Of a stretch of 64,000 nucleotides of DNA, positions 125 to 60,500 are shown one piece after another. The translations under genes and the position numbers were made by a program. The stretch's first letter is position 1; every line of letters begins with the position of its first letter. Source of the DNA: Anolis carolinensis (taxonomy: Eukaryota); the NCBI RefSeq assembly GCF_035594765.1, contig NC_085842.1, positions 146,705,036-146,769,035 of the forward strand. Reading direction: 5' to 3'. The notes beneath the pieces were generated by a model. It searched no databases. It worked only from the letters and a program-made list of their open reading frames with translations, and had not been told where the DNA came from.

Positions 125-3100
125 CTGCTGATACATAGGCTGTTGTCCTGACATGTAAGGCTGCTGGGGTGGCAAGCTACTCAAACCTGGCTCTTGGCCA
201 GGGAGGGTTGACATGAGGTTCTAGCAAGGAGAAAAGAGAGTGTGTGTGTATCAGAAACCCCAGTGATCCAAGAAGCCACAGCCTGGACAACAGGCACCTT
301 GTGGTTTTGTGCCATGAAGTCATTTCTGACTTATGGCTACCCTTAGGCAAACATATCTTGGGTATTCTTAGTAGGATTTATTCAGGGAGGGTGTACCATT
401 GCCCTCTTCTTAGGCTGAAGTAAGACCTGCCCAAGTCATCCAGTGGGTTTTCACAGCAAAGTAGAGATTTGAAGCTTGGCCTCCCAGTGTGCTAGTCTAA
501 CACTTAAACCGCTATAAGACACTGGCTCTCTGGCACCTATGCACAGAAATTGGGTGTTCTCCACCAGTCCTTTTTGTGAGCTAACCATCTTCACACATCC
601 ATGCAAAAGTGATTCCTTACCTGCATGTTGTAGGGTTGGTAGCCCATTGAAACTGACTGATTGCCCATGTAGCCCATTGTGCCACCAGATGGTGGAGGAG
701 CCTGTGTCATGGCAGGGATGGTCTGGGGTTGGGAAGAGGCCGCTGCATTCTGCAAGGCAAAGAGGGCAGGGATGGGCAAAGGCATGGAAGAGCATGTAGC
801 ATAAAATGATTCTGATCTTCTGCATTTCAATAGTAAGGAGTTATACAAGGCCAAAATGTATTGTACGTATACCACTGGCTCTCTTCCAGAGAATTCAAGG
901 CAATATACATAGGTTTTTACATTTCATTCTCACAGCACTGTGAAGAAGGTTAGATTATGAGACTCGCCCAAGGGAGCTTTATGGCTTGACAGGAATAAGC
1001 TGGGTTTTGCAGCCCAACACTAACTACAGTCAGCTCTCCATATTAACTGGGTAAAGGGGCACAGTCCCCCACGCCCCAAGTGGAAAAATGTAAATAAAAA
1101 ACAGCCACATTTTTGCATGAGAGAACACCTTTCTAGCAATCTCTAGTTCCTCCAGCATGACTCTGGACATCTTCCACTGAGAGCTGACCAGAGAATCACA
1201 CTGAATTATCTAGAGATTACTAGAGAGAAGATTTTAGTCAAATCCTTGAATAATCAAAGCTTCAAAAGTCAAATAAGCAAATGCAGAGTTCCATCGGTAT
1301 TTCACTAGGGCACTCCCTCCTCTTCCAAACAGTCTTAACCACGCTGGGTATGGGAAGGGACTTGTGGGTCTGAACTTACCTGATAGCCCTGGGTAGGAGT
1401 AGGCTGGTAAGAGGAATAGGCGGGGTTTGTAGTGGGCACTGGCTGCCCTTGTGGAGCTGTCTGTGCACTGTTAGTTCCAGTTGAGTACATATAGGTGCCC
1501 ACCATGTTGGGATCTGAAACATAGGTCAAGAATGAGTAAAAGACATCCTTCTAGGATCTGCTCAGTAGTCTAGGTGTTAGATCAACATTCAGTTTGAGAG
1601 GCTTAGGCTAAATACCTTCACCTCTTCTTACTTTCTCCTCTACTGTTCTTACCTGTTCCTGCCACGGACATTGCAGTGTAGGGCCCAGCACTACCCTGGG
1701 CGGGTTGGCTCATGTACACTGTATGCATGGGTGAGCCCTCTACTGAGCTTGCTGGGCTGAAGGTGGCTGGGAAGCTTGTGGGGCCTGACGGCTGGTAGAT
1801 CACCCCGCCAGCTGGAGGCATGGCCTGCAGCTAAAAAAAATAAGAAGTGAGGCCAGGGAGGGTGAGTTACTTCAGGTTCTACCCTTGCCTAGTTCATAGG
1901 GGGAAGAAACAGGACAGAAATGTCTGGTCTCCCCATTCTTCCTACCTGGGCATAAGGCAGGGAGAAAGCAGGCATCTGCGCCCGCATCTGGATTGTTTGC
2001 TTCTGTTGCTCCAAGCGCATCTGGCGCTCCTTTTCCTGCTCCTGAAGGCGCTGGATAGCCAACTGCCGCTGCATCTCCAGGTATTCCTACAAGTGAGCAA
2101 CATGCACATTGGAGATTTAGTCCTTGGGCCACTGTGCTTCATGTTGTGCTGGGTTCTGCTACTTGCCAGTCATTTTTCAAGAAATAGCAAACATATCCTT
2201 AGGTTATGCAGTCACACTTTGCACATGCCAGTGGAAGGCTCACCTGTTTCTTCTGCCTCATAATCTCCAGCTTCTGGGCCAGTTGGATCTGTCGCTGTCG
2301 CTCTGCCTCCTCAGCAGCACGGCGCAGCTTCTCTCTGTGTTCCTCTCGCAGAGCATTCAAGGCTCCCCGGGCATCCCGGATCTGGGCAAGTTTATCTTGA
2401 AGTCCCTCATAATACACTGGGGGTTGATGGGAGAAAGGCAGTGTCAAGACTCTCACCAATGACCACTTTTAGACATACTTCCCCGAGACTGAGCAGCTCC
2501 CACCTGGACTAAAGCAGGGGTTGAATTCTCAATGAGAGCCAAAGGCCAGTAGATGTTGGGGTAGGAAAAGGGGATGAGATGGGGTTTGTACCAGAAGGAC
2601 ATAAGGTTGCCAGATAGCAGGCAATGATTTAAAGGGGAGCACAATACTGCTACATATCCATACACACACACCCCTCCCCGGTCTCCAACCCCACAGGGAC
2701 TGGGATTCTGAGAACATACAACGGCGTTCATCCAGCTGATTCAGCAACTCCAGAAGCTGGGGATGCATGCTGTTGATGGATTGGAAGAGTGAGAGCACAG
2801 CTGAGTCATTAGTAATGCTCCGTCCCCGGAGGTGATTGCTCTTCATGCGGTTGACAAAGGTGGTGACAGCATTCTGCAAAGCCTTCAAGAACTGCTCGTG
2901 GCTCTCATCCGTCTCTCCATTTTGGTACTGCTGCTGAGGAGGAATTGAAACCAGGAAGTTGAAAGAACAATTCCCAATCCAGTTTACAATTTTAAGAGTA
3001 CTTTTTAATCCAGGATTACCACTCTCATCTCCCCTACATTAGAAGCTCCTTTATAACATCCCTTTCCCTAAAAAGACAACACCCAGAACAAATGTGACAC

Positions 3101-31000: not shown

Positions 31001-34000
31001 AAGTAAAAAAAGAAAGGAAAAGGGTCTACAAATCCATACAAACCGGGGGACAACCTCAACACCTAGACTTCTGCTGGCAATGGCCAACACATACAAACTG
31101 CAGAAGTAGCAATATTCCCCATCCCCCACTTCATTTTAACTGTCAGGCTTTGGGTTACCTGCAGATAGCAACATACACCTCTAGGACTGGAGACTCCTGC
31201 TTCTCCCAAGCGGCCAGGAGGTTGTACATATATGGCACCAACAGGTTTATCAGAGACACCAGCAATGGCAGGAACAGCAGGAGGGCTTCTTTGCCAACAC
31301 GGTTACTTGCTGAGAACTTGTCCTGGTGAACCTGGGGAAGAGAAGGAATTGCTCTGTGGGCTGCTTTGCCCTCACTTCAAAAACCATTTAGCTGGGAATT
31401 CTCTCAGTGCCAACTAGCATGTGCTGACTTGTTCATACAGTAGTCTCACTTATCCAACATTCGCTTATCCAATGTTCTGGATTATCCAATGCAGTTGGCC
31501 TTTTAGTAGTCAATGTTTTTGTAGACAATCTTTTCAGTACATTGGTGACGAATTCGTAAATACAATAATTACTACATAACATTGCTGTGTATTGAACTGC
31601 TTTTTCTGTCAAATTTGTTATAAAACATGATGTTTTGGTACTTAATTTGTAAAATCATAATGTAATTTGATGTTTAATAGGCTTTTCCTTAATCCCTCCT
31701 TATTATCCAACATATTCGCTTATCCAACGTTCTGCCGGCCCATTTATGTTGGGTAAGTGAGACTCTACTGTATTTAACAAAAGCTGAGTTGGACATAACA
31801 GAACAAGATTTAAAAGAACCTTTCCTGTGACATTACAAGACACATGGCAGGCATCTAAAGAAAATGGTGAAGGCCACAGCAGTACTGCAATGTCTAAAGA
31901 GTTTATTTTCTGGAACGTAGCCATTTACGTATCAGAAGTAGCAGGCTGCTGCTGTTGTGGCTGATTACGGAAGTTCTTGGCCTCATATGTGTTTCATACT
32001 AAAATAATGTAATAATACAATACAATAATGCAATAATGTAAATAATACAGCCCCATATCCACGAGACCCATACCCATATTTTCATATACCCACATTCAAT
32101 AAAATATGCTATCTCTAGGAATTTTCTAGGACCTTCAGGGCAACATGCTTGTGGACAATTTCAATAGAAAGGAGGAAACCATAAAAATGAACAAAATCTG
32201 GCTACCAGTATTTTAAAAAACTCTAAAAGCAGGACAGTAAATAAAGAACACTCAGAAAACAAAGGAATTCCAAACATGAAATAAGTAGGGCCAGCTAACA
32301 CCTCCCAACAAAGGATTACCCCAGGCAGGAAGCAGCTAGACTTTGAAGCTGCAAGTCTATTCAGGGCTAATCAAAGTGTCCAATTGCAATATTCACACCT
32401 GCCTCAATCAGGCAAGAATTCTTCTCGCACCCTGGACATTCCACATATATATAAACCCCTTTTGCCTAGTTTCTAACAGACCTCATAACCTGCCATAGAT
32501 ATGGTGAAACGTCAGGAGAGAATGCTTCTAGAACATATCCATTCAGCCTGGAAAACTCACAGAACCCCATTTCAATAGGACACACTACTATTCATAATTT
32601 CTTGTTTCCACAGTAAGTTCAGAACCATATCCTCCACAGATGCCGGGGACTGTATTGTATTCAAAAAAATCCACACTGAATGTCTATTATAACACAGAAG
32701 AAAGCAAACTGCTGTTAGGTCAGCCATCAAGGTACCACCAGATCCTGTCTTTGGAAGAAATCTAGAACTGTAGCTCTGTGTGTAAAAGGCAACCCTTCAA
32801 AAAATAACTCCTACAGAAATACTTGATCCTATCTATTCATGTGACCAGAAACTTAGCCTACAGCAGAGGCTACGCATTCCCTCTTCTGCACCCAGCAAGG
32901 GACTCCAACTGCCAGAAAACTCACTCACCTGGTGGCTGTACTCTGAGAAGTAGTAAACACCAATGGCACAACCCAGAACAACACCCAGGGATACGGCCCA
33001 GCATATCAACAGGATGGCCATCCTTTGCAGTCTCTTACACAAGTTTAATGGATTCGATCTAGCCCAGTGTTCAGCCAGACACTCCTAAAAAAACAGAATA
33101 AACCCAAACATCAGGACAATATGTTAGAAAAAGTCCTAAAATATGATTGCCTAGGCCAGTGGTTTCCCAACCTTTGGTCTTCCAGATGTTTTGGACTTCA
33201 GCTCCCACAATTCCAAACAGCTGGTGAGCTGGCTGGGGTTCCTGGGAGTTGAAGTCCAAAAAACCTGGTGACCAAAGGCTGGGAACCACTGGCCTAGGAA
33301 GTCAAGGATCACAAAGAAGCTAAACTGCATCTTGAGGCGATGGTGCAGAGACATGTTGACTGTGGGATTCTGGGCATAAATATTTCAAATTCTGTGAACC
33401 CCAATTACCTAAGTCTTTAGAGGAACTCAAGTCAGTGATTCTAATGTGCTTCTGTCTAGAGTGAGATTTTTATATATATATATATATATACACACACAAC
33501 ATAAGGTAAAGGCAGAACTATTTTTGTTTTTATCAGATAGTTTGGAAAGTTATCAACACCATAGCCCAAGATGCTTTGGATATGCCACTGCCTTGGAACT
33601 TCTTTGTACGTATTTTCTGTGGCCCTGGAGCCAAAAATGCAGGCATTTGGTTTCTGGAGTCCTCTTATTCTATCTATTCAGGGGACCAGTTTCCTACTTC
33701 ATTTAATTGTTGAATTTCTATAGCCTTGCCTTCAGCTGAGTGCAGATGTTTTCACTCTGAAGTAGGACGGAGCGTTTCTGGATCACCTTGTAGTCCCAGG
33801 CACAGAAGACCTTAACAGCCAGCTCCCCTGATGCACTGCCCACTCGGTAACTCTCCCCAAAGGAGCGAGACATACTGAAAAGGGAATATACCATACCAGA
33901 CTATATGATTAGGAATGCCTTTTTTAAAAAATCCTGTAAGCAAAGTCCTATACAATCTTTCCATTTTAGCTGAGATCCAATAAAATGGATCAGCAGTAGT

Positions 34001-37000: not shown

Positions 37001-40000
37001 ATTTCGGAAACCCTGTAAGGAAAATAGATATGAATGGAAAAGCTTTTCAGTTCCAAAGATGGTCTAAGCTATCTTGGACTAATGGGCCATTTGGGCCTTT
37101 TTCCTATTGGCATTTTTGAAGTGTTTTAAAACCATGCATTCAAGTATATCAAACATGCAGTTGTTGCATTGTTCCTCTAATACAGTGGTTCTCAACCTGT
37201 GGGTCCCCAGGTATTTTGGCCTACAACTCCCAGAAATCCCAGCCAGTTTCCCAGCTGTTAGGATTTCTGGGTTGAAGGCCAAAACATATGGGGACACACA
37301 GGTTGAGAACCACTGCGTTTAATATCTAGATGCTAAAATAAGATACATCAAAGAAGCAAATTGATAAAACTTGCAAAGCAGCTGATAAAGAAGAAATGTC
37401 AAAACAGCTTTTTCCCCGGGTCTAGCTTATTATGAACTGAGATGTTCAGTCTCTACAGAGAGTGATTTCTCCAAACATAAACAGAGACTTATATGTAGTC
37501 ATGTTGAAGAGAGAACTGCCATATCTTCTCCTCTGCTTGCTCTTAAATGGTTGCCGAGAAGCACTTTGCTTATGCAAAGTGAAACGAAATAGTAACAGCC
37601 TCCACTTTAGATGAGGAACACTTTGTATTAAGCCACTCTTTGAGCATTTTTGCATAGCAAACGGGATGCTTCTTGGTTAACCAGAATGAGTGAGCCAAAG
37701 CCCATCTTTCCTATTTTTCCAAATTCTCAGCATCAAAATTGACCTGCTGCCGTTTTTCACAAACTCATCGAACTCATCGAACAAAAGTCTGCTCCCTTTG
37801 TACCAATCACTATCATGACAAGGGATGAACCGTTTCTTTCTGCACTCCATGTAATAACTCAGATTTTCGTAAAGCATGCTGAGATCAATAGCAACTCTGA
37901 GGTTGGCAAAGAGACAAAAGCTAAAAGCTCTCACAGTTCTTACAACTTAAAAAAATCCATTGATTTCATGAAAGAACTTTGTAAAAATTTCTTTCCAACA
38001 GCAGTTGGAACATAGGAGCCACACTTTCACCCCAAGGAGACTCCAAATGTGGGCTTAGAGGTTTTCTGGTACATTTTACCTTTATTATTTATTAAATTAA
38101 TTTGTCTTGCCCTATTTTGTAAGATCCCCCTAGAACCAAATCCCATAGTAAAGGTAAAGGTTTTGCCTTGATCTTAAGTCTAGTCGAATCCAACTCTGGG
38201 GGGTGGTGCTCATCTCCATTTCTAAGCCAAAGAGCTGGCATTGTCCATAGACACCTCCTAGGTCATGTGGCCAGCATGACTGCATGGAGCGCTGTTACCT
38301 CCCTCCCGAAGCGGTATCTATTGATCTACTCACATTTGCATGTTTTCGAACTTCTAGGTTGGCAGAAGCTGGGACTAACAAAGGGAGCTCACTCTGCTCC
38401 CAGGATTCAAACCACCAATCTTTCAGTCAGCAAGTTCAGCAGCTCAGTGGTGTAACCCACTGCGCCATCAGGGGGGCCTAAATCCCATAGGAGTCTTGGA
38501 ATCAAATCTCAGCAGGAGCCAAAGACTCACTTCACTTGGTGAAGGAATGAAACTAATATCTGTTCTTATTTGTGTGAAAATTTGCAATCAATTAGCCTTG
38601 GTAAGAAGGTTGAGGGTGAAATCTATTAGCAGCATCTGCCCTAGACATGAACATAGAATACACACCTCCCTGTTTTGAGATTATGAGTACCAAACTAGAT
38701 GATTGTTCTTATACTACATAGGTAGAACAGATGGATAATGGCTTACTATAATGATGTGGTATTTAAGCCGGCTGCACTGTGACAAAGGAGCAGTCGTCTT
38801 GGGTTTTTGCAAGGTCCCTGAGTAGCCACTTGAATCGTGCCTACAAAAGAAATAAGCAGGCAGATTTAAAAGCACTCCAGAAAAGTTGTTGCTTTGAACA
38901 GAATTATGAATTCCCCATGCTGTTTCAGGTTCAGCCCCTCAATCTGATCCCCACAATGCTTTTTCTTTGTCCAGAAAGAGCTAGTGGCCAGAAAAGGTAG
39001 AACCTAAGGATGCATAAAAGCACTTACCTGAGTCGGCGCTTTTCGGTCAGACTTAGAGGCATTGCTTGCAGCATGTTAATGCGCTGATTTGCTGGTAGGC
39101 TCCGAAGTTCTTTCACCAATAAGGCACGCTTGGCTAGGAAGGAAAGCACATAGGTAGCAAGAGGTCAGAAATCAGGGAGACAGAAACAACAGCATTCCCC
39201 ATAGACACACATTTTGGCAGCAGAAAGAAAAAACAACTCAAAGGAGAACCCCTCTAATATATTCCACTTTGGATCTAGGCACCATTAAAACAAAATAATA
39301 TTAATAATACAGAGAAATAGTGGCTGACAACAAGAAAATAGAATGTTTATGGTGAAATGTGCCAGAAAAGTGAGCACCATCACTCTTCTGGACATCATAT
39401 CTGGAAAACCTATAGAGCTCCTGTCTCTTCTGGTGAGGAAGTCAGATTTTTACAATGTACCAGTAATACCAGGAGAAAGGGACTGGGTGATGAAGACATC
39501 TGAATGGAAGGATAACATATGGTAGATCTGGGATTTATCTGGCCCTCCACATAGTACACTGACGAAGTCCTATGATCCTGCAACATTGCTTTTACTAGCT
39601 AAGGCTGATGGGGATCACAATCAAACAATATATGGAGGACCACTTACTCATTCCTGTATCATGCTAATCACTAGTGTTAGCTATTTACATTTATAGCACA
39701 TAGTTAGTAGCCTTGGGGAAGCATTGCTCCCAATTCCCTGGAACTGCCTCCTTGCCCAAGAGTGCCATCCTCCTAGCTCTTTCAGCCAACTTACTTTCTT
39801 CCTCCTCCTGACCAGAGTCAAGCTCTAGATCAAGCTGCCGAACACTGGGCCGTGCAGAGCGGGACACTTTTTGCAATGGTACACGGCTGCTCCTACGGCG
39901 CAACCTGGCAGTGCGATTATAATACTGGGACAGGATGGCTCCTCTGCTACGGCCTGCAAGCAGAACAGAGAGGCACAAAAAATGATGAGTACAGCCCATC

Positions 40001-43000: not shown

Positions 43001-44609
43001 ATGTGCTTGTGTGAATCCCATCTGGAGATGACACAGGAAAACTAAAGACGAGATCTGGCAGTCCTAATGTAAGTGTTTTCCTCCAGAGTACAGCCCTTAG
43101 CCATATGCTCTACAGATCCAGTTAGGGTGGACAATGTGAAACTCCATGATCACAGACAACAGGCACACCAGAGATCTGTGTAGAGACAATTTAGACAACA
43201 CAAATATAAACAAGAGAGCAAGGATTATGAGAATTCCTTAGTTTGATTAAATAAATCTCTGTAAACCATTTCTCTGTGTGTACCATCTAAAGTCCACAGT
43301 TGCAGAAACCTTCTCAACTCAGAACTTTACTGTTTATGGGAACTGTGATGCAATCTACTTCTATCAAAAGATCAAAAAGCTAATGAAACAATGGGATACT
43401 TTGCACTGTTTTGGTATCAGAATATTCCGATGACTGCGGCACTCTGAGCATGGACAAAAACTACAGTTTTGAGTAATCGTTTTTTTACTGTGGATCACTA
43501 ACTTTGTACTTCCTCTGACTGACTCATTGAAGACAACATATTAGAGCAAACAGTCCAATTATCATGCCCAATAAAGACTTTTTTGTCCTCTGTCCTTTTT
43601 TTTCCCATCTTAAGTCTGCATGGATACAAGTGGACGTGCCTCTTCTACGCACACACAGGAAGAGTCTAAAAAGGCAAAGAGGCCTCCGTGCTCCAGCATT
43701 CCCATCCCCTGTGTGGGCTGTTTCTTTCTATGGTGAAATTCTGACCTCTTATCAAGTAAAAACAAACATGTCTGTCACACCCAATTTTACAGTCTTAAAC
43801 TACTATATGTGTGCTCCAATGTTTCTGAGTAAGTGTCATAGTGCATTTCCTGCTCTTCTTGAATGTCTTCCTCTTTCAGATTGTCAGCAATCAGGATGCT
43901 ATGCTCTAAATAGATAAGGAATTTCATCTTCTTGGTTAGTTTTTGCTTCCTAGGAGTGTGGGGATATTATTTATTTATTGAATTTATATCCCACTCTTCC
44001 TTGAGTGACCTCAAAACAATTTACATAACTTGTTTCCTTTCCACTTTATCCCATATAAAATAGATTAGGCTGAGAGAGAGAGTGACAGACCCAGGATTAA
44101 GATGTGCCTTAATCCGGTAGGGACTAGAACCAGCAACTCTCAAGTCTCAGTTTAATTCTATGTGTCTTACTATGATACCGCACTAGCTGTTTGACTCTCA
44201 GGCCCCTTCTACACTGCCATATAAACCAGATGATCAAAGCAGATAATCCACATTATCGGCTTTATATGAGTCTACACTGCCATATAATCCAGTTCAAAGC
44301 AGATAATCTAGATTTTATATGGCATCATAGAAGCGGCCTCGGAAATCTCTGGTTAAGAGTGTCTTGGAACAGCGTCATCTGATTTTTGGCAAAATAGAAG
44401 TATTTCAAAGGAAAGAGGTACTACTAGATTAATTTTTTCTAGTAATTAAGGTGCATTGCACTAGTCATATACCACATTTTAGTGCTTATCTAGGTCACAG
44501 AAAAGCAATCTTACAAATTTAGTACTCATAACATGAGACTGAAGTACACTCACCTCTTAGCCTCATTGTTCTCAGGAGCATGAAATGTGAAAGTCACCGT
44601 GTGGGACAT
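22029..44609 (-). CDS. TMC6: Transmembrane channel-like protein 6 (EVER1), about 797 aa, 19 coding exons
   Basis: Exons in transcript order: 44554-44609, 41072-41196, 40129-40260, 39795-39953, 39028-39133, 38747-38840, 36758-37012, 34932-35125, 33730-33874 (GC donor), 32929-33084, 31159-31331, 29308-29389, 27509-27606, 26722-26817, 24819-24894, 24194-24327, 23596-23772, 22576-22654, 22029-22085 (TGA). Total 2394 nt, in frame. TMC6-diagnostic peptides: [49 protein letters not shown], the TMC signature [28 protein letters not shown] and [13 protein letters not shown]. Confidence 0.95.
26200..26386 (+). mobile_element. L2 LINE 3' tail
   Basis: GTAAGCCGCCCTGAGTCCCTTCGGG...GGGCGGGATATAAAT followed by (AAAT)n. 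Confidence 0.65.
29620..29855 (+). mobile_element. 5S rRNA-derived SINE (SINE3, 5S-Sauria-like), decayed
   Basis: Head GCACCAGATCCTGTCTAATCT...GCCCTGATTAGTACTTGGATAGGAGACT...GCAGGCT aligns to 5S rRNA (GCGCCCGATCTCGTCTGATCT...GCCTGGTTAGTACTTGGATGGGAGACC...GTAGGCT) with an internal deletion. Followed by an RTE/BovB-like 3' body. Confidence 0.7.
31438..31770. mobile_element. Tc1/mariner MITE
   Basis: TIR CAGTAG(AG)TCTCACTTATCCAA, TA flanks; same family as 17223-17545. Confidence 0.85.
32165..32570 (+). mobile_element. Penelope-like element 3' fragment
   Basis: Same family as 50491-50964 and 51753-52265. Retains GAAACGTCAGGAGAGAATGC, but the hammerhead CTGAGGA core is deleted. Confidence 0.7.
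33157..33291. mobile_element. hAT (Charlie-like) MITE
   Basis: TIR CAGTGGTT(T)CCCA, 8-bp TSD GCCTAGGC/GCCTAGGA. Confidence 0.8.
34345..34667. mobile_element. Tc1/mariner MITE
   Basis: TIR CAGTAGAGTCTCACTTATC, TA TSD. Confidence 0.85.
35501..35770 (-). mobile_element. tRNA-derived lizard SINE, full length
   Basis: 11-bp TSD TAGTTCATACT (35490-35500 and 35771-35781). B-box-like GGTTTGAATC on the - strand. Confidence 0.8.
36069..36222. mobile_element. hAT (Charlie-like) MITE
   Basis: TIR CAGTGGTTCTCAACC, TSD CACTAGTG/CACTACTG, internal duplication of about 30 bp. Confidence 0.8.
37183..37315. mobile_element. hAT (Charlie-like) MITE
   Basis: TIRs CAGTGGTTCTCAACCTGTG / CACAGGTTGAGAACCACTG. Confidence 0.8.
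38149..38479 (-). mobile_element. Sauria SINE, full length
   Basis: (ACCTTT)n tail on the - strand, characteristic body (GGTCATGTGGCCAGCATGACTGCATGGAGCG, CTATTGATCTACTCAC) and 11-bp TSD AAATCCCATAG (38138-38148 and 38480-38490). Confidence 0.85.
42491..42630. mobile_element. PIF/Harbinger-type palindromic MITE
   Basis: Long inverted repeats with a 3-bp TTA TSD. Relatives at about 44200-44340, 47388-47490, 48198-48303 and 50168-50441. Confidence 0.75.
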
Positions 44610-49370: not shown

Positions 49371-50490
49371 CCTCCAGATGTTTTGGACTTCAGCTGAGCA
49401 TCCCACAGAGGCAAGCTTCCTTGATACATTATAACTTTTCCCCTTGCTCTCCCAGTGTAGCTATTTCTGTGATAATGGAAAGGCTGCATGCCCAAGGCTT
49501 TCTGCTCCTCCTGTGCCAGGCAATACAGCCTGCAGTTTCATCTTCCACCCTTCCCCCTTTTCCATTCCCTCCCTCCTCCTCCAGGACGTCCCAATAGGAT
49601 TCAGGAAACCTCACTCAACCACAGTTCCCCCTCCTTACATTGAGTGCTGGAAACCTCAGCCTATTTACTCAGAAGCATATTTCTTGAAAGTATATTTGGC
49701 TTTGGACCTGGATTCAGAAGTGACTCCAGTTAGGAGAGTGGGTGAAATGTCAAGCCCGGCTACCTCTACTAAAGAAAAATATGATTCATTTTAAGGTCAT
49801 AATTAAAACAAAGTTTTCAAAGCTTTCTTGTATCTGAGTCTTCTCTATAATCAGGAAAGCTATATTTTTCATCACAATAAGATATACTGTAGTTAGCATA
49901 CTAGAACTATCACCCCTTCTGTGGACTCCAAGTAAATAATGCCACTCTGGTTATTGGGTGCCTTCAAGTTATTTCTGACCTTTGGCAAGCTTCAGGCAAA
50001 CCTATCACAGGATTTCCTTGACATGATTTGTTTATAAGAGGGTTCCCATTGCTTTCCACTATGGCTGAGACAGTGTGACTTGCCCAAGGTCACTCAGGGG
50101 ATTTCATGGCCAAGTGAGGAATTGAACCCTGGTCTGAAGAGTCCCAGTCCAATGCCCAAAGCACAAAGGGCCCTTCCACACAGCCCTGTATCTCAGAATA
50201 TCAAGGCAGAAAATCCCACAATATCTGCTTTGAACTGGGTTATATGAATATATCCCAGTTCAAAGCAGATAATGTGGGATTTTATTCAGCCATGTGGAAG
50301 GGGTTTAGGGGCCCAGAATATCCCAGAAAATCCCACAATATCTGCTTTGAACTCAGTTATCTGAGTCCACACTGCCATATATCCCAGTTCAAAGCAGATA
50401 CTGTGGGATTTTTTAGGTTATATGGCTATGTAGAAGGGCCCTAAGTTTCACTTTGCAGGAACGTCTGATCAAAATAACAGCACACAAAAG

Positions 50491-50964
50491 GGTTGTTGTA
50501 TGTTTTTCGGGCTGTATGGCCATGTTCCAGAAGTATTCTCTCCTGACGTTTCGCCCACATCTATGGCAGGCATCCTCAGAGGTTGTGAGGTATGGAGAAA
50601 ACTAAGCAAAGAGGTTAATATATATCTGTGCGAAGTCTAGGGTGAGAGAGGTCAGTGTGAATGTTGTAGTTAATCACCTTAATTAGCATTGAAAAACTTA
50701 TCGGCTGTCTTCTTCCTGCCTCTGGGGCATCCTTTGTTTAGAGTCGTTAACTGCCCTTGGTTGATTCATTTCTGGAAATCCTCTATTTTCAGAGTGCTGC
50801 TTTTTATTTACTGTTCTGATTTTTTAGTTTTTTAATACTGGTAGCCAGATTTTGATCATTTTCATTGTTTCCTCCTTTCTGTTGAAGTTGTCCACATGCT
50901 TGTGAATTTCAATGGCTTCTCTATGTAGTCTGACAGGATAGGTGATTAAAGCCTTCGACAACAC
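50491..50964 (-). mobile_element. Penelope-like element, truncated, with target-site duplication
   Basis: pLTR sequence containing a hammerhead motif, a short inverted tail AAAGCCTTCGACAACAC, and 14-bp TSD ACAGCACACAAAAG (50477-50490 and 50965-50978). Confidence 0.78.
50542..50582 (-). ncRNA. Minimal type I hammerhead ribozyme motif (Penelope-associated)
   Basis: The - strand reads CCT-CTGAGGA-T-GCCTGC-CATAGAT-GTGGGC-GAAA-CG-TC-AGG: stem I CCT/AGG, CUGAnGA core, 6-bp stem II with two G-U pairs, GAAA, and palindromic ACGT before the UC cleavage site. Confidence 0.7.
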
Positions 50965-51061
50965 ACAGCACACAAAAGCTTTCACAATTGTTACGGTGAC
51001 TCAAGAGCCACTCTTTTGCCTAGCAACATTACTTGTTTCCTTTCAGAAGCCTTTAGATTCA

Positions 51062-51280
51062 CACTTGCCATAGACAATAGACAAGAGTCCTTTTCCCACC
51101 CTGGACCTTTCACAGATATATAAACCCCATTTGCCTAGTTTCCAGCAGACCTCACACCCTCTGAGGATGCCTGCCTTAGATGCAGGCGAAATGTCAGGAG
51201 AGAATGCCTCTGGAACATGGCCAAACAGCCCGGAAAACTGACAGCAACCCATGATTCCGTCCATGAAAGCCTTCCGCAAC
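51062..51280 (+). mobile_element. Penelope pLTR fragment with hammerhead motif (51158-51198)
   Basis: CCT-CTGAGGA-T-GCCTGC-CTTAGAT-GCAGGC-GAAA-TGTC-AGG, with a fully Watson-Crick stem II. Confidence 0.75.
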
Positions 51281-51289
51281 ACAGGCTCC

Positions 51290-51750
51290 CACGACTCCAC
51301 CACACTGAGCCATGGCTGGAACCCAAAAGGGCGCTGACGTCACCAGCCCCCCGCTGCAGATCGCAAGGCAAAAGGGAAACGTGAGATGGCTCACCAAGTC
51401 CAGGAAACGGCCCGTGTCCCAGTCCCACCAGTGAGGGACGGTCCGCCTTTCTCCCCCAGCCTTTGTCTCCCACCTGGCGACTTCCTCTTCCAGGAGCGTT
51501 TCTACCTAAGAGCCCGAAAACTTTTCCTCCAAGTTCCAGCCGCCAGACCGCACCCCGTGCCTCACCTGCGTTACAAAGGACGCTGGGAGTTGTAGTCCTC
51601 GGGCTTCTGAAGCCGCTCCCTCGCGCCTTCGCTTCTGGTTTCATAGAAAGGAGAAGAACCTGCTTGCAAAGAGCCCGCCGGTTTCCTTCGTTCAAAGGAG
51701 CTGCTTGCGCACCGGGGAAACGCACCTCCGAGTTCTCTCCCAAAAGAATG
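51290..51750. promoter_or_regulatory. CpG-rich island, probable TMC6 promoter and non-coding first exon (possibly shared with TMC8)
   Basis: Non-repeat GC/CpG-rich tract between the divergent TMC6 and TMC8 coding starts. Full CRE palindrome TGACGTCA at 51335-51342. ZNF143/SBS-like GACTACAACTCCCAG on the - strand at 51583-51597. Minus-strand donor CAG|GTGAG with the exon ending at 51566. Confidence 0.55.
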
Positions 51751-51752
51751 AC

Positions 51753-52265
51753 TGGGTTGCTGTGAGTTTTCCGGGCCGTATGGCCATGTTCCAGAAGCAT
51801 TATCTCCTGACGTTTCACCAACATCTATGGCAGGCATCCTCAGAGGTTGTGAGGTATATTGAAAACTAGGTCAGTGGGGTTTATATATCTGTGGAAGGTC
51901 CAGGGTGTATTAAAAAAAACCTATAAAATCAGGACAGTAAATAAAGAACATCACTCAGAAAATGGGAATTCGAGGCATGAAATAATCAGGGCCAGCTAAC
52001 ACCTCCCAACAAAGGATTCCCCCAGGCAGGAATCAGCCAGGCTTTGAAGCTGCAAGGCTTTTCAATGATTAATCACAACATGCCTCCAACAGACAAGAGT
52101 TCTTTCTCCCACCCTGGACCTTCCACAGATATATAAACCCCACTAACCTAGTTTCCAATATACCTCACAACCTCTGTGGATGTCTGCCGTAGATATGGGC
52201 GAAACGTCAGGAGAGAATACTTCTGGAACATGGCCATAAAGCCTGAAAAAATCATAGCAATCCAG
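51753..52265. mobile_element. Penelope-like element with inverted pLTR arrangement; hammerhead motifs at 51806-51846 (-) and 52171-52211 (+, mutated core)
   Basis: 51753-51908 is the reverse complement of about 52110-52263, the inverted-pLTR structure typical of Penelope insertions. Confidence 0.78.
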
Positions 52266-52382
52266 CAAACACATTTTTACACTCTACTTTCTCTCTTTGA
52301 TGATTGGGGAACCTGAATGTTAAAATTTTATGCAAATAATAACCAAAGCTGAGGAAAACATATATAGGTGTTTGTATTGTCT

Positions 52383-52695
52383 CAGTATCCCTTCTCTGAA
52401 ATGCTTGAGACCAAAAGTGTTTGGGATCTTGGATTTCCAGCCCCTAAACGTTGGAATACCTGCATTTGCATATACTGTACTTACATTATGAGATATCTTG
52501 GAGAACAGATCCAAGTCTGGCTATGAAATTCATTTCTGTTTCATATACACTTCGTACACACAGCTTAGAGATAATTTTATACAATATTGTTAATTGTCTC
52601 TGAAATAAAGTTTGTGCATATCAAAAAGCAAGGATGTTACTCTCTCAGTCACCTATATGAACAATTTTAGATTGTGGAATATCAGATATCAACTT
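52383..52695. mobile_element. Old Tigger/pogo-like MITE
   Basis: AGTATCCCTTCTCTGAAATGCTTGAGACCAAAAGTGTTT resembles Tigger4/MER46-type ends. Related sequence at about 56985-57595. Confidence 0.5.
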
Positions 52696-52929
52696 GCTTG
52701 TATAGTCCATCTTCAGGTGTCTTTACGTTTCATATGCTGTAAAGAACATGGCAATATGTTTCTTCCAGAGCTTGATATTTTTAGACTATAATTCTTCCAG
52801 AATCATCAAAGGCTTTCATGGCCGGAATCACTGGGTTGCTGTGAGTTTTCTGGGCTGTATGGCCATGTTCCAGAAGCATTATCTCCTGACGTTTTACCCA
52901 CTTCAGTGGTAGGCATCCTCAGAGGCTGT

Positions 52930-54300
52930 CATCAGTGATGGACTGGATGAGGGCCAACAAACTGAAACTAAATCCAGACAAGAATGCTGGTCAGTCGTAA
53001 GGCGGATCAGGGTGTGGGATTACAACCTGTGTTGGATGGGGTCTCACTCCCCCTGAAGACACAGGTTCGCAGTCTGGGGGTGCTCCTGGACTCATCGTTG
53101 ACTCTGGAACCCCAGGTGTCGGTGGTGGCCAGGAGCGCCTTTGCACAGCTAAAACTTGTGCACCAGCTGCGCCCATACCTTGAGATGCCGGACTTGGCCA
53201 TGGTAGTCCACACCTTAGTAACATCCCGTTTGGAATACTGCAACGCTCTCTACGTGGGGCTGCCTTTGAAAATAGTTCAGAAACTACAGCTAGTTCAGCA
53301 ATCATAGAATCATAGAATAGTAGAGTTGGAAGAGACCTCATGGGCCATCCAGTCCAACCCCCTGCCAAGAAGCAGGTAGGTTACTAACTGGAACCCCGTA
53401 CAGGGAGAGAACCACTCCCATGTTGCGGCAGCTCCACTAGCTGCCAGTCCGTTTCGAAGCTAAATACAAAGTGCTGGTCGTTACCTATAAAGCCTAAACG
53501 GCTGAGGTCCAGGCTATTTGTCAAATCGCATCTCCCTGTATAGACCATCTCGGGCACTTTGGTCAGTGGAGAAGGCCCTGCTCTCAGTCCCACCCCCGAC
53601 ACAAGCGTGGCTGGTTTTTTTTTTCTTCTTCTTCCTGTCAGGAGCAACCGGAGTTGCTTCTGGAGTGAGAGAATTGGCCGTCTGCAAGGACATTGCCCAG
53701 GGGACGCCCAGATGTTTTTTTCTCTATGTTTTACCATCCTTGTGGGAGGCTTCTCTCATGTAACCGCATGGAGCTGGAGCTGATAGAGGGAGCTCATCCG
53801 CGCTCTCCCCGGGTGAGATTCGAACCTGGCAGCCTTCAGGTCAGCAACCCAACCTTCAAGTCACAAGGCTTTTATCCCCTAGGCCACCAGAGGCTCCAGC
53901 GCGGCTGGTGGGAACAAGAGAGGGGGCCTTCTCCGTGCTCGCCCCTCCATCTCTGGAACTCCCTCCCTAAAGAAATTAAAATGCCCCCCACCCTCCTCTC
54001 CTTTAAGAAACTGTTAAAGACACATCTATGCACCTTAGCATACGGAGAGGAGGAGGACTAACATAACTGCCACCCCATAGCAGCTATGGTCTAAGTGAAA
54101 GTAAAACAAGGACTGACTGTCATGTTTAAATTTATTGTTTTTCTAATGTGGAATTTTATTATAATGTGTATGTTATTGTCATTTTATACTTTTAATATTA
54201 ATGAAGAAATTGTGGCATTGAATGTTTGCCGTTTATATCTACGTTAACCGCCCTGAGTCCCTCGGGAGAGAGGGTGGTCTAGAAATATAGTTTTATTATT
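52930..54300 (+). mobile_element. L2 LINE 3' portion (ORF2 C-terminus, pseudogenised), interrupted by a CR1 3' tail (53301-53376, -) and a SINE (53616-53897, -)
   Basis: WMRANKLKLNPDK...VRSLGVLLDSSLTLEPQV...LVTSRLEYCNALYVGLP...KLQLVQ is the L2 post-RT signature. The CR1 piece has an (ATTCTATG)n-type tail. The SINE has TSD AGCGTGGCTGGT/AGCGCGGCTGGT (53604-53615 and 53898-53909). Confidence 0.85.
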
Positions 54301-56007
54301 GTTGTTGCTGTTGTTGTTGTTGTTGTTGTTGTTGTGAGGTACTTCACAATCTCTGAGGATGTCTGCCATAGATGTGGGTGAAATGTCAGGAGAGAATTCT
54401 TCTGGAACATGGCTATACAGTCCAAAAAATCTTCCAGAATCCTTTACTCAGCGGAGCTATTGGCTGAAGGATTCTGGGACAAGTTATTCCCAAATCTTGA
54501 CATTTTCTCAAAAAGCTAAGACCTTTAAAGAGCTGTTGTCATATAGTGCACCTACAGTTTAAAAATAATGCAGTGTGATGCCACTTGTGAGATGGTCTTT
54601 AAGCTTCTCTGTCAAATACTTCTTCTAGTGCCTCATGGAGCTGCAGCTCCCTTGATTCCACAGTGTTGCTTCATGGCAATTAAAGTGGTGTTAACCTGCA
54701 TTAATTCTATAATATAGATGTACCCACAAGACAGGATATATGGACAAAACATCTCTCTTACTGCAGATAATTTTCAATTTGCTATTTCTCTATGTCCCAC
54801 ACCATGTAAAACAGGGTGATACTTACAGATAAATATTGCAACACACTTCCTACGTACCCTGACTACTTGCACTTCAGGAAATGGCCTGTTCCTGTCACAT
54901 GGGGTTGCCTTCACCATCCCTTCGTACAAGTAATGAAAATCCACAGTTGGGCTGAATAGACTGTACTTCAGTCCCCTCGCCCCTGAAAGAGCCTTATTGC
55001 CAGAATAACTCTCAGGGGTAACCTGTCATATTTTGAGGCTGTGGGAATTCACGACAAAGGAGCTAAAATATTGAGGGTTGAGTTATTTTTTTCCTCCAAA
55101 GTCAAACTGAAATTAATTGCTGTGCCAGCAGACAAATTGGGAGGAATCATTTCTGCCCCTTTGTGTGGCTGAAATAGTATGGCTGTGTGAGGGTGACAGT
55201 GGGAGGAACCCTTTATCACAGGCTCACATATGTATGTAAAAATTATCAGATAGGTAATAGCCAGCTGGAGAGAAAAGGAAATGAAAATGGAGCAACATGT
55301 GGCAATAACACTGTTTCTCTTTTCTCAGAGCTGACTGTATGGCGGGTTGACCAGAGGCACTCTCGGGTCGGAAGTTCTCCATGAAAACAAGAGCCAGAAC
55401 AGCAGAGCGGCTCCCGGAGAATGCAACTTCCTTCCAAGTGGTATGTAATATCTGTTAGCCAGTTCAGCAAAGGCATCAAGTAACCTTAAATATGTTATTG
55501 TAACTGCAATTCCTCCTTATACTAAAGTTTACTCCAAGTTGCTTTTTTCAGCTTGAAAATATTTATTAAAAATATCCAAAAAGCAAACCTTGATTTTGCC
55601 ATTTTATATGCTTTCTTACAACACCATTGTATATGATGGCATTGAGCATCTGTAGATTTTGTTTTCATGGACGCTCTTGGAACCAAATCCCAACAGATAA
55701 CAAAGATCCTGCTGCAATTTGGGGCTGTTCTTATTCTCAGCTAAAATAACGGAGAGATAAGGCTGCAGTAGTAGAGACTCAAAGGCAGTTGTGAGCCATT
55801 AATAGATAACATTTGAGGTAAAAAAGGCATCTCGGATCCGAGATGGATAGTGAAGCTGGTGCTTGAATGTGAATTCCTAGCATCACTGGTTATGGATCTT
55901 GGGAGTTATGATGCCTATAATCTGAAGAGTAGATTATATGGCCTAACTATTCCTATCACCAAACATTCCAGACCTGTTCCGCCTTGTTGTTTCAGGTCCC
56001 TGAAGTG

Positions 56008-57539: not shown

Positions 57540-60500
57540 TCACAATTCAAAAAACTTGTGGTACCAAGCATTTTGGACAACGGATACTCAGCCTGTGCCC
57601 CCAGTGGACAAGGGAATAAAACTGTAGGACTGAGAACCAAAATGTTTCGAAGTGCAAATGTTTCCCATTCCTGTTATTGTAATGTCCTGTACACTTCTAG
57701 AACATGGCCATACAGCCCGGAAAACATACAACAACCCTGTGATCCCGGCCATGAAAGCCTTCGACAACACCTGTACATAATGTTTTCTTGGCAAGATTTC
57801 TTCAGAAAGTGTTTGCTGTTACCTTCCTCTGAGGCTGAGATTGTCGTTCAACACTAAAACTGCTACATTATCATCATGTTAGTTCACTGTATGACTTACA
57901 AAAATAATCCCCACAAATCCTCTTTTTCTTGTTGAGAAAAGATACCTCGAGAAGTCACATGTTTTGACATGTCAACAAATCCATGTGCAAAAACCACTGT
58001 GAGAAAGAGAAGCAAGCTGCCCATCTAGTGCTCTCCTTTTAAAAACAAAGTAGCAGCAAAAGGTTTTTCTGTTATTTTAAGTTCTTCATTCTGCAAAAGC
58101 CCTTCACACAAAGAAGGAGGGGTTGGAAATCTGGAAAAAATGTATATTTTTTCCAGAATTTCATCCAGCAGGGAGAAAAATTTTGAAATGGTTCAGATGA
58201 AAATGAATCAAGTAAAGATTTAAATCCTTAATATGCTGTCTCTATTGGGGTCATGTATGTGGCAATCCTCAACCAGAGCATGGGCTGGAATATTACTTAT
58301 TTATTTCTTTATTTACTTTATACCCTTTAGCCACCTTAACCCTTCCTCCCTGAGGAAACTCAAAGTGACTAACAGTCACCCTTTGATCAATTTAAAACAA
58401 AGCAAATACAAAAATTAAAAAATAAGCAAGAGTGTACGTGTTAGATTAAAAATAGAATTAAAATACAATAAATACAATTAAAATGCATTTTAAAACACTC
58501 AATTCCTCCCTCCACAAAATCCGACCCACAACCTCCCCAGCAACGTGCTCTTTATCCCCTTATATATGATATTGTCGTAAGCATTACAGATGTAATTACA
58601 GCCACAGCTCCTTGCAGAAAGCAACTCAGAGCATCCACTGGAAGAAATGTGTCCAACTGGGTAGCCTTAAAACAAAGACAATACAGGATCCAGAAGCAGC
58701 TTCAAGAAGGCATTTCGGACTTTTCCAGAATCTTCCGGCTCTGGAGGGTTTCTCTGGATGACATTGAAGGTAAGCAGAGAATGGTTTTCAGCACCATAAG
58801 CAGGAAATATCACTGGTATAATGCATATCATCCAGCTGTCCTGACTTGGCAGAGGCCATGCCAATTAGAAATGCTTTAGAAATGCCGTAGTTTCTTCCTG
58901 CTTCCCTTTTTTCCCCCTTTGCCCTGGACTCACTTCAGGTGGTGAAGAGATCAATGCAAAAATAATTGCACTCAATTAATAGAGTAGAAGGGAGAGGCAA
59001 AATCTTACTCTTCCCAAAAGGCTCAGGCTCAAGGAAACCACTGCAGCTTCTGCTGAGTAATCCGCTGTACCTTGTTAAATGCCTTTTGCCATCTTGACCA
59101 AATCTAAATGGATTTGGCCACATGTATACTATACTATCTCTGAAATGTTGCAAGGTAAGATGTTGTCTGGGTTCAAGACAATGCCAACAATTTATTTATG
59201 GCCGAAGACATCGGATAGAAAAGCTCTCTGTTTTAAGAAGGAAATTGATTTTATAATACTGGCTGAAAAAATAACCTATCTAACCATTAGTCAGGTTGAT
59301 ACGGAGCAAGGGAGACCTCTGGAGGCTGTTTGGCTGGCTGCAAAGATTATTGGGAGGGAAAATTGTACCCTAATTTTGTGTAATAATAAAATCCCTACTC
59401 CAAAGTAGTAGGATCCCACCTTTGCGCAACTCTGTGGATATCATTTGTGTTATGTTGCATCCAGAGTTGTAGATTGATAGTGAAGGGAAGGGAGGCATGT
59501 GGTGTTTAAGGAAAACTACCCCTTTCTCCACAAAAAATATATGTTTTAAAATTCACAGAAGCCTATATTTGCCCACCAGTGACTGAAACTGAACTAGACT
59601 CATAGAATCATAGAGCTGAAAGAGACCTCATGGCCCATCCAGTCCAACCCCTTTCTGCCAAGAAGCAGGAAAATCACATTCAAAGCATCCCTGACAGATA
59701 GCCATCCAGCCTCTGTTTAAAAGCCTCCAAAAAGGAGCCTTCACCACACTAAATAAAATGGTTAACAGAAACAGACAAAATCCTCAAACTGGTTGGATTG
59801 AAAGTCACCAAAGGTGCATCTATACTATGGAATTATTGCAGTTTGACACCACTTTAACTTTTGTGGCTCAATGATATGGAGTCCTGGAATTTGTAGTTTG
59901 TTGAGGCACCACCAGTCTTTGGCAGAGAAGTCAAGAGAATGAAGTTGGCAGCATAAGCTTTAGTAGGCTCAATCAACTTCTTCTGAGTTTGCATCTGAAG
60001 AAATAAAACTGGATCTACACTGCCCTATATCCTACCCTGTTTCCATGAAAATAAGACATCCCCAGAAAATAAGACCTAGTAGAGGTTTTGCTGAATTGCT
60101 AAATATAAGGCCTCCCCTGAAAGTAAGACCTAGCAAAGTTTTTGTTTAGAAGCAGGCAGGATTGGTAAATGTACATTCCATACCGTGTTTCCCCGAAAAT
60201 AAGACAGTGTCTTATATTATTTTTTACTCCCAAAGAAGTGCTAGGTCTTATTTTCAGTGGATGTCTTATTTTTCCATGAAGAAGAATTCACATTTATTGT
60301 TGAACAAAAAATGAACATTTATTCTATACTGTACAGTACTTGTCATCACAAACCAATACAGTAGAGTCTCACTTATCCAACATTCGCTTATCCAACGCAT
60401 TTTTGTAATCAATGTTTTCAATACATCGTGATATTTTGGTACTAAATTCATAAATACAGTAATTACTACGTAGCATTACTACCTATTGAATTACTTTTTC

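What the first reader, a model, noticed from the sequence alone, without database searches (positions are those of the whole stretch)
50491..54430. Cluster of six hammerhead-ribozyme motifs around the TMC6/TMC8 promoter region
Seen: CCT-CTGAGGA-stem II-GAAA-(C/T)GTC-AGG recurs at 50542-50582 (-), 51158-51198 (+), 51806-51846 (-), 52171-52211 (+, core CTGTGGA), 52885-52925 (-, degenerate) and 54350-54390 (+). Stem II variants GCAGGC and GTGGGC both pair with GCCTGC. Known: Penelope-like elements carry minimal type I hammerheads in their pLTRs, with a vestigial stem III that is thought to require dimerisation through the palindromic loop. Inference: the copies bracket the CpG island on both strands, and the best-preserved one (50542-50582) would be sense in the inferred first intron of TMC6. 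Nascent transcripts could therefore self-cleave or form dsRNA. Function at this locus is unproven.
Basis: partly seen in the sequence, partly recalled or inferred. Interest (0 to 1): 0.7.

Follow-up and report, generated by a model that had tools for sequence, protein, structure and literature searches.

The report
Poseidon scraps crowd lizard promoter edges
The six ribozyme motifs are broken-off ends of a known, very common lizard jumping gene and are likely inert here; they bunch up because, in a sample of this genome, the element sits about five times more densely beside promoter-type CpG islands than elsewhere, likely from an old insertion preference.

Summary
All six motifs are real. They are hammerheads in truncated ends of the green-anole Penelope-like retrotransposon PAc/Poseidon_Ac (12,566 exact copies of the best 41-mer genome-wide), and come from four insertions; two are bounded by 14- and 12-bp target duplications. 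Only 50542-50582 is intact. Copy 4 lost A6, copy 5 lost G12, and copies 2, 3 and 6 have a damaged palindrome or stem II. In the inferred TMC6 pre-mRNA the intact copy is predicted to be locked in a duplex with copy 2. The published motif cleaves only with PAc protein. Promoter-proximal copies decay equally at core and non-core positions (30/495 vs 64/1080), so a ribozyme role at TMC6/TMC8 is not supported. The clustering is not random: 29 of 58 unique promoter-motif CpG islands have a copy within 2 kb, against 8 of 74 control stretches (rate ratio 5.6, CI 3.1-10.2), in two motif sets. LINE/SINE fragments show at most 1.8-fold; MITE-like repeats 3-4-fold. The youngest copies are not enriched, so insertion preference versus retention is open. 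The scan met this element before on other DNA; I found the promoter-flank bias neither in those notes nor in my paper searches.

The parts
50491..50964 (-). Insertion 1 (young): 5'-truncated PAc 3' end (endonuclease C-terminus, pLTR, hammerhead, first ~83 nt of the next ORF) plus a short inverted tail remnant at about 50946-50964
   Evidence: 94.8% over 458 bp to long natural copy L051; closest relatives 95-97%; 14-bp target duplication at 50477 and 50965; tail remnant read from the sequence
50542..50582 (-). Hammerhead copy 1: the only intact one; would be sense in a TMC6 transcript starting at the island
   Evidence: 12,566 exact copies in the genome
51058..51282 (+). Insertion 2 (older subfamily): truncated pLTR with hammerhead copy 2 (51158-51198; ACGU palindrome changed to AUGU) and full tail ending at about ORF +116
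   Evidence: 84% to L051 over 51094-51250; limits read from the sequence; no convincing target duplication
51283..51750 (.). Small CpG island between PAc tails; inferred shared TMC6/TMC8 promoter; donor-like sites at 51565 and 51394 (minus) and 51381 (plus)
   Evidence: GC 0.56-0.60, CpG O/E 0.59-0.85 in 300-bp windows over 51201-51800; transcription start not shown
51750..52262 (.). Insertion 3 (old): inverted pair with one junction at 51907; copy 3 (51806-51846, minus; U-U mismatch and G-U closing pair in stem II) and copy 4 (52171-52211, plus; A6 changed to U)
   Evidence: both BLAST pieces end at 51907; closest relatives 81-90%; single event inferred, no target duplication found
52805..54429 (.). 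Insertion 4: fold-back stub, copy 5 (52885-52925, minus; G12 changed to A) and copy 6 (54350-54390, plus; AUGU, weakened stems), later split by a LINE fragment
   Evidence: 12-bp target duplication at 52793 and 54430; 59-bp motif spacing once the LINE is set aside, as in stubs L028 and L040 (59, 62 bp)
52930..54330 (+). LINE 3' fragment (L2-like by recall) with a SINE-like insert at about 53616-53902 (Sauria SINE by recall)
   Evidence: translation; 7-bp duplication at 53609 and 53903; multi-copy; no Pfam hit
44556..44609 (-). TMC6 first coding exon
   Evidence: tblastn of P0002 residues 1-18, 94%; gene named
55381..55452 (+). TMC8 first coding exon
   Evidence: tblastn of P0122 residues 1-24, 75%

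Best explanation
The six motifs are hammerheads carried in truncated 3' ends of the Penelope-like element PAc, left by four inferred insertions, and they are likely decaying passengers that do not cut TMC6 or TMC8 RNA; they cluster because PAc copies are about five-fold denser within 2 kb of promoter-type CpG islands in the sampled genome, likely from a preference of an older insertion wave for accessible, AT-richer island flanks. Shown: identity to a long RT + GIY-YIG copy, target duplications, lesions, equal decay of core and non-core positions, and the enrichment in the sample. Inferred: inactivity, the transcription starts, and the cause of the enrichment. Confidence is about 0.9 for neutral debris, about 0.9 that the enrichment is real, and about 0.55 that insertion preference is its main cause.
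For: Long copy L051 has an 801-codon open frame with an RVT_1 hit and a GIY-YIG-type motif next to the same 41-mer. The ATG starts stem II and the cut lies 26 nt after it, as described for PAc (sequence). Copy numbers: 12,566 exact, 37,939 relaxed vs 23 control. Target duplications and lesions. Core 30/495 vs other 64/1080 mismatches in 45 near copies, p 0.91. Downstream of the oriented motif 10 sense: 5 antisense. Enrichment: 35 events in 232 kb vs 20 in 740 kb, ratio 5.6 (3.1-10.2); loci 29/58 vs 8/74, p 7e-7. It replicates (23 of 32 events within 2 kb, p 3e-4; 12 of 17, p 0.011), holds with no locus dropped (47/119, p 1e-5) and by BLAST (ratio 5.0-5.1). LINE, CR1-tail and SINE queries give 0.3-1.6, against general retention. 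ATT/AAT density rises from 12 per kb in the island core to 43-50 per kb at 0.5-2 kb; PAc prefers ATT in vitro.
Against: Exact (mostly young) copies are not enriched: 1 seen within 2 kb, 1.6 expected without and 8.8 with a 5.6-fold bias (P 0.0014); 1 of 10 exact-copy loci has a CpG-rich patch, vs 40 of 222 background tiles. Near copies give longer BLAST matches (median 278 vs 105 bp) at slightly lower identity (78 vs 81%, p 0.044), which fits retention; on a fixed segment the difference is not significant (p 0.11). Core plus palindrome is intact in 13 of 45 near copies vs 4 of 29 background copies (not tested). Three MITE-like queries are also enriched (2.9-3.9), so the bias is not PAc-specific. 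Promoters were defined by two recalled motifs plus a CpG filter, not by annotation; 61 of 119 loci were dropped (48 in repeat families, 13 failing the filter). No sampled island had four events within 3 kb (maximum 3). Copy 1 is intact and was not assayed.
Confidence: 0.6

Rival explanations
1. The debris is neutral and insertion is unbiased, but copies near promoters are retained longer and stay recognisable, because deletions there are purged and CpG decay is slower.
For: No enrichment of exact copies; near copies give longer, slightly more diverged matches; the older subfamily drives the signal (27 copies in 232 kb vs 11 in 740 kb).
Against: LINE, CR1-tail and SINE fragments are enriched 0.3-1.6-fold only. 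Loosening detection to 10 mismatches or BLAST leaves the ratio unchanged. Copies at least 95% like the young element are 3 in 232 kb vs 4 in 740 kb (small numbers).
Confidence: 0.22
2. Copy 1 self-cleaves nascent TMC6 RNA, alone, as a dimer in trans, or helped by PAc protein, and so tunes TMC6/TMC8 output.
For: Copy 1 has all 12 core nucleotides and the ACGU palindrome and would be sense to TMC6. The same kind of motif cleaves in vitro with PAc protein (PMC11167929).
Against: No cleavage without protein and no RNA-seq ends at the site; a metazoan minimal monomer was inactive and dimers weak (PMC4209133). No second intact sense copy. The monomer's best fold pairs the core with the cleavage site, and the duplex with copy 2 removes stem II. 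No core conservation and no sense depletion near promoters. Copy 1 is young, so being intact needs no selection.
Confidence: 0.04
3. One or more copies were co-opted as promoter or splicing parts, for example the antisense tail of copy 3 supplying a donor (GCT/GTGAGT at 51762) for a TMC8 leader exon, or the copy 1/copy 2 hairpin acting as a dsRNA editing substrate.
For: Donor-like site at the island edge; predicted hairpin of -352 kcal/mol, z -19.
Against: The donor is part of the element's ordinary antisense tail and recurs at copy 5; inverted pairs are the usual layout (4 of 8 events in the random sample). No transcript evidence was obtained.
Confidence: 0.06
4. The cluster is a chance pile-up, and the apparent promoter-flank bias is an artefact of how loci were sampled.
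For: The window as a whole holds 4 events against about 1.7 expected; anchors were motifs, and 48 of 119 fell in repeat families.
Against: Two independent motifs agree; the outer 4 kb of the same loci has 10 of 58 vs 29 of 58 in the centre; the result holds at 3, 6 and 10 mismatches and with all 119 loci.
Confidence: 0.08

Closest known systems
PAc / Poseidon_Ac of Anolis carolinensis and its hammerhead (Frangieh et al. 2024, PMC11167929; parts 1-2 of 4 of the text read, supplement list seen, the .gbk consensus unreadable)
   Same: ORF begins at stem II, cut 26 nt after the ATG, RT then GIY-YIG frame, optional 30-40 bp tail (copy 2 ends near +116; the paper maps RT starts to +111-118), same species.
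   Different: These are truncated, ORF-less ends, 5 of 6 with lesions. The parts read report AT-rich target sites but no promoter-flank distribution. No direct alignment to the Repbase consensus was possible.
Minimal type I hammerheads of metazoan PLE pLTRs (Cervera and De la Pena 2014, PMC4209133; parts 1-2 of 4 read)
   Same: No loop 3, palindromic 15.2-16.2, extra nucleotide between 9 and 10.1, G10.1-C11.1 pair, long stem II, short stem I; opposite-strand pairs 100-700 bp apart are described there.
   Different: No same-strand intact tandem here, so the proposed dimer cannot form in cis.
Inverted 5'-truncated PLE insertions with tail (Craig et al. 2021, PMC8557442; passages seen)
   Same: Inverted truncated copy next to the main copy; tail at one end.
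   Different: The passages seen mention a microsatellite insertion bias for Naiad/Chlamys, not a promoter bias.
Elements biased to transcription starts and CpG islands: MLV (PMC1480600, abstract start in a search listing) and piggyBac (PMC4786924, title and abstract start only)
   Same: Excess near promoter-type islands.
   Different: Those use DDE integrases or transposases and were mapped de novo (partly recalled). Here the enzyme is RT + GIY-YIG, the data are resident copies, and the youngest class shows no excess.
Anole TE landscape at 1-Mb scale (Bourgeois et al. 2020, PMC7561263; passages seen)
   Same: Penelope listed as 'Linked Sel. + Pref. Ins.?'; preferential insertion in high-recombination/open chromatin is proposed for SINEs and Tc1/Mariner.
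   Different: Megabase scale, Penelope called hard to interpret, 'CpG' has 0 occurrences in the main text; here the signal is a kb-scale peak 0.5-1 kb from promoter motifs.

Membership tests
EN+ Penelope-like element (Penelope/Poseidon clade) | Single frame with RT followed by C-terminal GIY-YIG endonuclease | tested here: met
   Met by long relative L051: 801 open codons, RVT_1 E 1.4e-13, GVY..YIG motif by eye. Window copies hold only the C-terminal end.
EN+ Penelope-like element (Penelope/Poseidon clade) | pLTR with hammerhead overlapping the ORF start | tested here: met
   41-mer follows the ORF end in L051 and in insertion 1; ATG at stem II.
EN+ Penelope-like element (Penelope/Poseidon clade) | 5' truncation, inverted partner copy, optional tail, target duplication | tested here: met
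   Inversion junction at 51907; 14- and 12-bp duplications; tail in copies 2 and 5. No duplication found for insertions 2 and 3.
Poseidon_Ac (PAc) | Sequence identity to the Repbase consensus | not testable with these tools
   The .gbk supplement is unreadable; 0 hits in the 3 readable supplements.
Poseidon_Ac (PAc) | ORF starts at stem II, cut 26 nt after the start codon, RT start near +111-118 | tested here: met
   Positions counted on the sequence against the text.
Minimal type I hammerhead | All 12 core nucleotides, stems I and II, ACGU palindrome | tested here: inconclusive
   Met by copy 1 (1 of 6). Copy 3 keeps core and palindrome with a damaged stem II; copies 2 and 6 lose the palindrome; copies 4 and 5 lose A6 or G12.
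Minimal type I hammerhead | Second intact same-strand copy in one transcript for dimer formation | tested here: not met
   From strands, lesions and an inferred start at the island.
Minimal type I hammerhead | Self-cleavage | not testable with these tools
   Needs an assay.
Host-co-opted (conserved) intronic ribozyme | Core positions conserved more than neighbouring positions | tested here: not met
   0.061 vs 0.059 mismatches per site in 45 promoter-proximal copies, p 0.91; this is a class-level test, not specific to copy 1.
Host-co-opted (conserved) intronic ribozyme | Present at the orthologous site in related species | not testable with these tools
   No relative genome is held.
Promoter-biased mobile elements (MLV/piggyBac-like distribution) | Excess of copies near transcription starts or CpG islands | tested here: met
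   Ratio 5.6 (3.1-10.2) at motif-defined islands.
Promoter-biased mobile elements (MLV/piggyBac-like distribution) | Excess present in new, unselected insertions | tested here: inconclusive
   Exact copies 1 vs 1.6 or 8.8 expected; near-young class 3 in 232 kb vs 4 in 740 kb.

The most novel reading that the evidence does not exclude
A Penelope-like retrotransposon is steered to the flanks of CpG-island promoters in the lizard germline, so that about half of such promoters carry a hammerhead-bearing stub within 2 kb; subfamilies differ in this preference, giving a natural handle on how an RT + GIY-YIG element chooses targets in chromatin.
Probability: 0.45. Interest if true: 0.5.

Novelty: new member of a known kind. 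Interest (0 to 1): 0.3.

Why it matters
The element and its ribozyme are published, and this locus adds nothing to ribozyme biology. The sample-level result does add something: half of the sampled promoter-type islands have a PAc stub within 2 kb. If an annotation-based count confirms it and polymorphic insertions show it too, it would be a chromatin-level target preference for a retroelement class whose target choice is known, in what I read, only as an AT-rich motif. PAc is the PLE with a purified active protein, so this can be tested directly. It also warns that hammerheads beside anole promoters are expected and are no sign of regulation.

Tried and rejected
Rfam found no hammerhead at either threshold; this says nothing against a minimal motif. 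A first fuzzy-match script timed out. No RNA holder was listed. The supplement search for the PAc sequence was blank, and the consensus file could bear on family assignment. The Atlas gave no answer for the LINE fragment, and Pfam none. A larger young-versus-old test around the best genome matches could not be run (searches gave coordinates only). A generic CpG-patch test is uninformative because 18-21% of background tiles pass it. BLAST identity as an age measure was set aside as confounded by match length and replaced by a fixed segment. Rejected: copies 1 and 2 as one insertion (copy 1 has its own duplication; different subfamilies); copies 5 and 6 as two insertions (shared duplication); an orientation bias toward islands (24 of 45, p 0.77). 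Searches for a printed promoter or CpG-island bias of Penelope/Poseidon (listings only, plus passages of PMC7561263 and bioRxiv 10.64898/2026.07.22.740005) found none; subscription journals are not covered.
Full report
Observation. The six 41-mers are present as stated, with 0, 4, 2, 4, 6 and 4 mismatches to the copy at 50542-50582; nothing else in the window comes closer than 17 mismatches without gaps. A seventh, gapped copy at about 32143-32556 lacks the first half of the core, and a tail-only piece lies at 57693-57738. Rfam has no hit.

Locus. An exon at 39796-39954 (minus) matches proteins named TMC6 and is 100% identical to Anolis carolinensis entries; the TMC6 first coding exon maps to 44556-44609. 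An exon at 58616-58771 matches Anolis sagrei TMC8 at 85%, and its first coding exon maps to 55381-55452. A small CpG island lies between, at about 51280-51750. That both genes start there is inferred from the head-to-head layout and donor-like sites; no transcript data could show it.

What the motifs are. The best 41-mer has 12,566 exact copies in 1.85 Gb (control 0), and a relaxed core has 37,939 (control 23). A long natural copy, L051, has 801 open codons with an RVT_1 hit and a GIY-YIG-type motif, followed by the same 41-mer. In the motif an ATG opens stem II and the cleavage site lies 26 nt after it, as PMC11167929 describes for PAc/Poseidon_Ac (parts 1-2 of 4 read). Copy 2 ends near ORF +116, inside the +111-118 range where that paper maps reverse-transcription starts. 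The consensus file was unreadable, so family assignment rests on these features.

Four insertions. Insertion 1 (50491-50964) has a 14-bp target duplication and is young (relatives 95-97%). Insertion 2 is an older truncated copy with no clear duplication. Copies 3 and 4 share an inversion junction at 51907 and are old (relatives 81-90%). Copies 5 and 6 lie inside one 12-bp duplication (52793, 54430) and were split later by a LINE fragment that itself holds a SINE-like insert (family names recalled). Inverted truncated partners and tails are described for PLEs (PMC8557442, passages).

Would they cut? Only copy 1 is intact. Copy 4 has A6 changed to U, copy 5 G12 to A, copies 2 and 6 lose the ACGU palindrome, and copy 3 has a damaged stem II. 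With starts at the island, TMC6 RNA would hold copy 1 in sense and copy 2 in antisense; TMC8 RNA would hold damaged copies 4 and 6 in sense. The best monomer fold of copy 1 pairs the core with the cleavage site. With copy 2 present the region folds into a long duplex (-352 kcal/mol, z -19), and stem II pair probability drops from about 0.7 to 0.0. In print, the PAc ribozyme cut only with protein, was not needed for insertion, and left no RNA-seq ends; a minimal monomer from Schistosoma was inactive and dimers weak (PMC4209133, parts 1-2 of 4). Among 45 promoter-proximal copies elsewhere, core and other non-CpG positions mismatch equally (30/495 vs 64/1080, p 0.91), and downstream copies are 10 sense to 5 antisense (direction taken from a recalled motif orientation). 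Against this, 13 of 45 near copies vs 4 of 29 background copies keep core plus palindrome (untested, and slower CpG decay would explain it).

Is the cluster more than chance? Background was 29 copies or 20 events in 74 stretches of 10 kb (38 evenly spaced, 36 placed 50 kb from motif sites). Four events in 64 kb is ordinary (1.7 expected, hand arithmetic); four in 6 kb is not (P 2.5e-5). I therefore sampled promoter-type islands using two recalled 14-nt motifs (YY1-like, 128 sites; NRF1-like, 169 sites; controls 0), fetching 59 and 60 of them. I dropped 48 in repeat families and 13 failing a CpG filter, leaving 58. Events per Mb were 86 (0-0.5 kb), 293 (0.5-1 kb), 112 (1-2 kb), 26 (2-3 kb) and 47 (3-5 kb), against 27 in background. 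Within 2 kb the ratio is 5.6 (CI 3.1-10.2); 29 of 58 loci have a copy vs 8 of 74 (p 7e-7). Each motif set shows it (p 3e-4, 0.011). It holds at 3, 6 and 10 mismatches, with all 119 loci (47 of 119), and against the outer 4 kb of the same loci (10 of 58). At the island rate, four events within 3 kb either side has P 0.005 and the sample's maximum was 3, so this locus is an upper-tail case of a general pattern.

Cause. Of 10 other repeat queries taken from the window, two LINE pieces, a CR1-like tail and the SINE gave ratios 0.3-1.6, one unnamed repeat 1.8, three MITE-like repeats 2.9-3.9, and two were too rare to judge (names recalled). That argues against blanket retention and for a feature shared by elements that favour accessible DNA. 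ATT/AAT sites, which PAc prefers in vitro, rise from 12 per kb in the island core to 43-50 per kb on the flanks. However, the signal comes mainly from an older subfamily (27 copies in 232 kb vs 11 in 740 kb), exact copies are not enriched (1 seen; 1.6 or 8.8 expected; P 0.0014 against a 5.6-fold bias), and near copies give longer matches. I commit to an insertion preference of the older wave, with retention as the main rival.

Comparison with print. The element, its ribozyme and its inverted layout are known. PMC7561263 (passages) lists Penelope as possibly preferentially inserted at megabase scale and calls it hard to interpret. Searches (listings) showed no paper on a promoter-flank bias of Penelope-like elements; the library lacks most subscription journals. 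Earlier notes of this scan describe the same element on other DNA (8 of 29 shown); none held the promoter-flank words.

Verdict. Observation confirmed; ribozyme function at TMC6/TMC8 unlikely (about 4%); the kb-scale enrichment at island flanks is the part worth following up. Interest 0.3.

Noticed in passing
L060, L065, L067, L078, L084, L089, L090, L092, L100, L102, L109: A dispersed repeat of about 4.7 kb, 98-99% identical between copies, carries a CpG island with the YY1-like motif and three old PAc hammerhead stubs at fixed spacing: a young mobile unit that seems to have captured a promoter-like island with its PAc flank.
   Followed up: partly
26 of 60 NRF1-motif loci (L111-L164): One repeat family holds the NRF1-like motif at its centre; not identified.
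   Followed up: no
window 51759-51767 (+): The antisense tail of copy 3 gives a consensus donor-like site (GCT/GTGAGT) at the island edge, in TMC8 orientation; use unknown.
   Followed up: partly
window 32143-32556 (+): Seventh, older PAc copy in a TMC6 intron; the first half of the hammerhead core is deleted.
   Followed up: partly
window 50165-50445: MITE-like repeat of nested inverted arms next to insertion 1; this family is itself 3.9-fold enriched at island flanks.
   Followed up: partly
window 51585-51600 (-): ACTACAACTCCC, resembling the ZNF143/THAP11-type motif of bidirectional promoters (recalled); a common anole repeat carries a similar word, so its origin is unclear.
   Followed up: no
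window 2532-3038 (-): Exon with an Hrs_helical domain (HGS-like, E 1.4e-19), so the gene order beside TMC6 here may differ from the human one as I recall it.
   Followed up: no
sampled copies, motif positions 26-27: A recurrent TG-to-CA double change turns both G-U wobbles of stem II into Watson-Crick pairs, probably a subfamily trait.
   Followed up: partly
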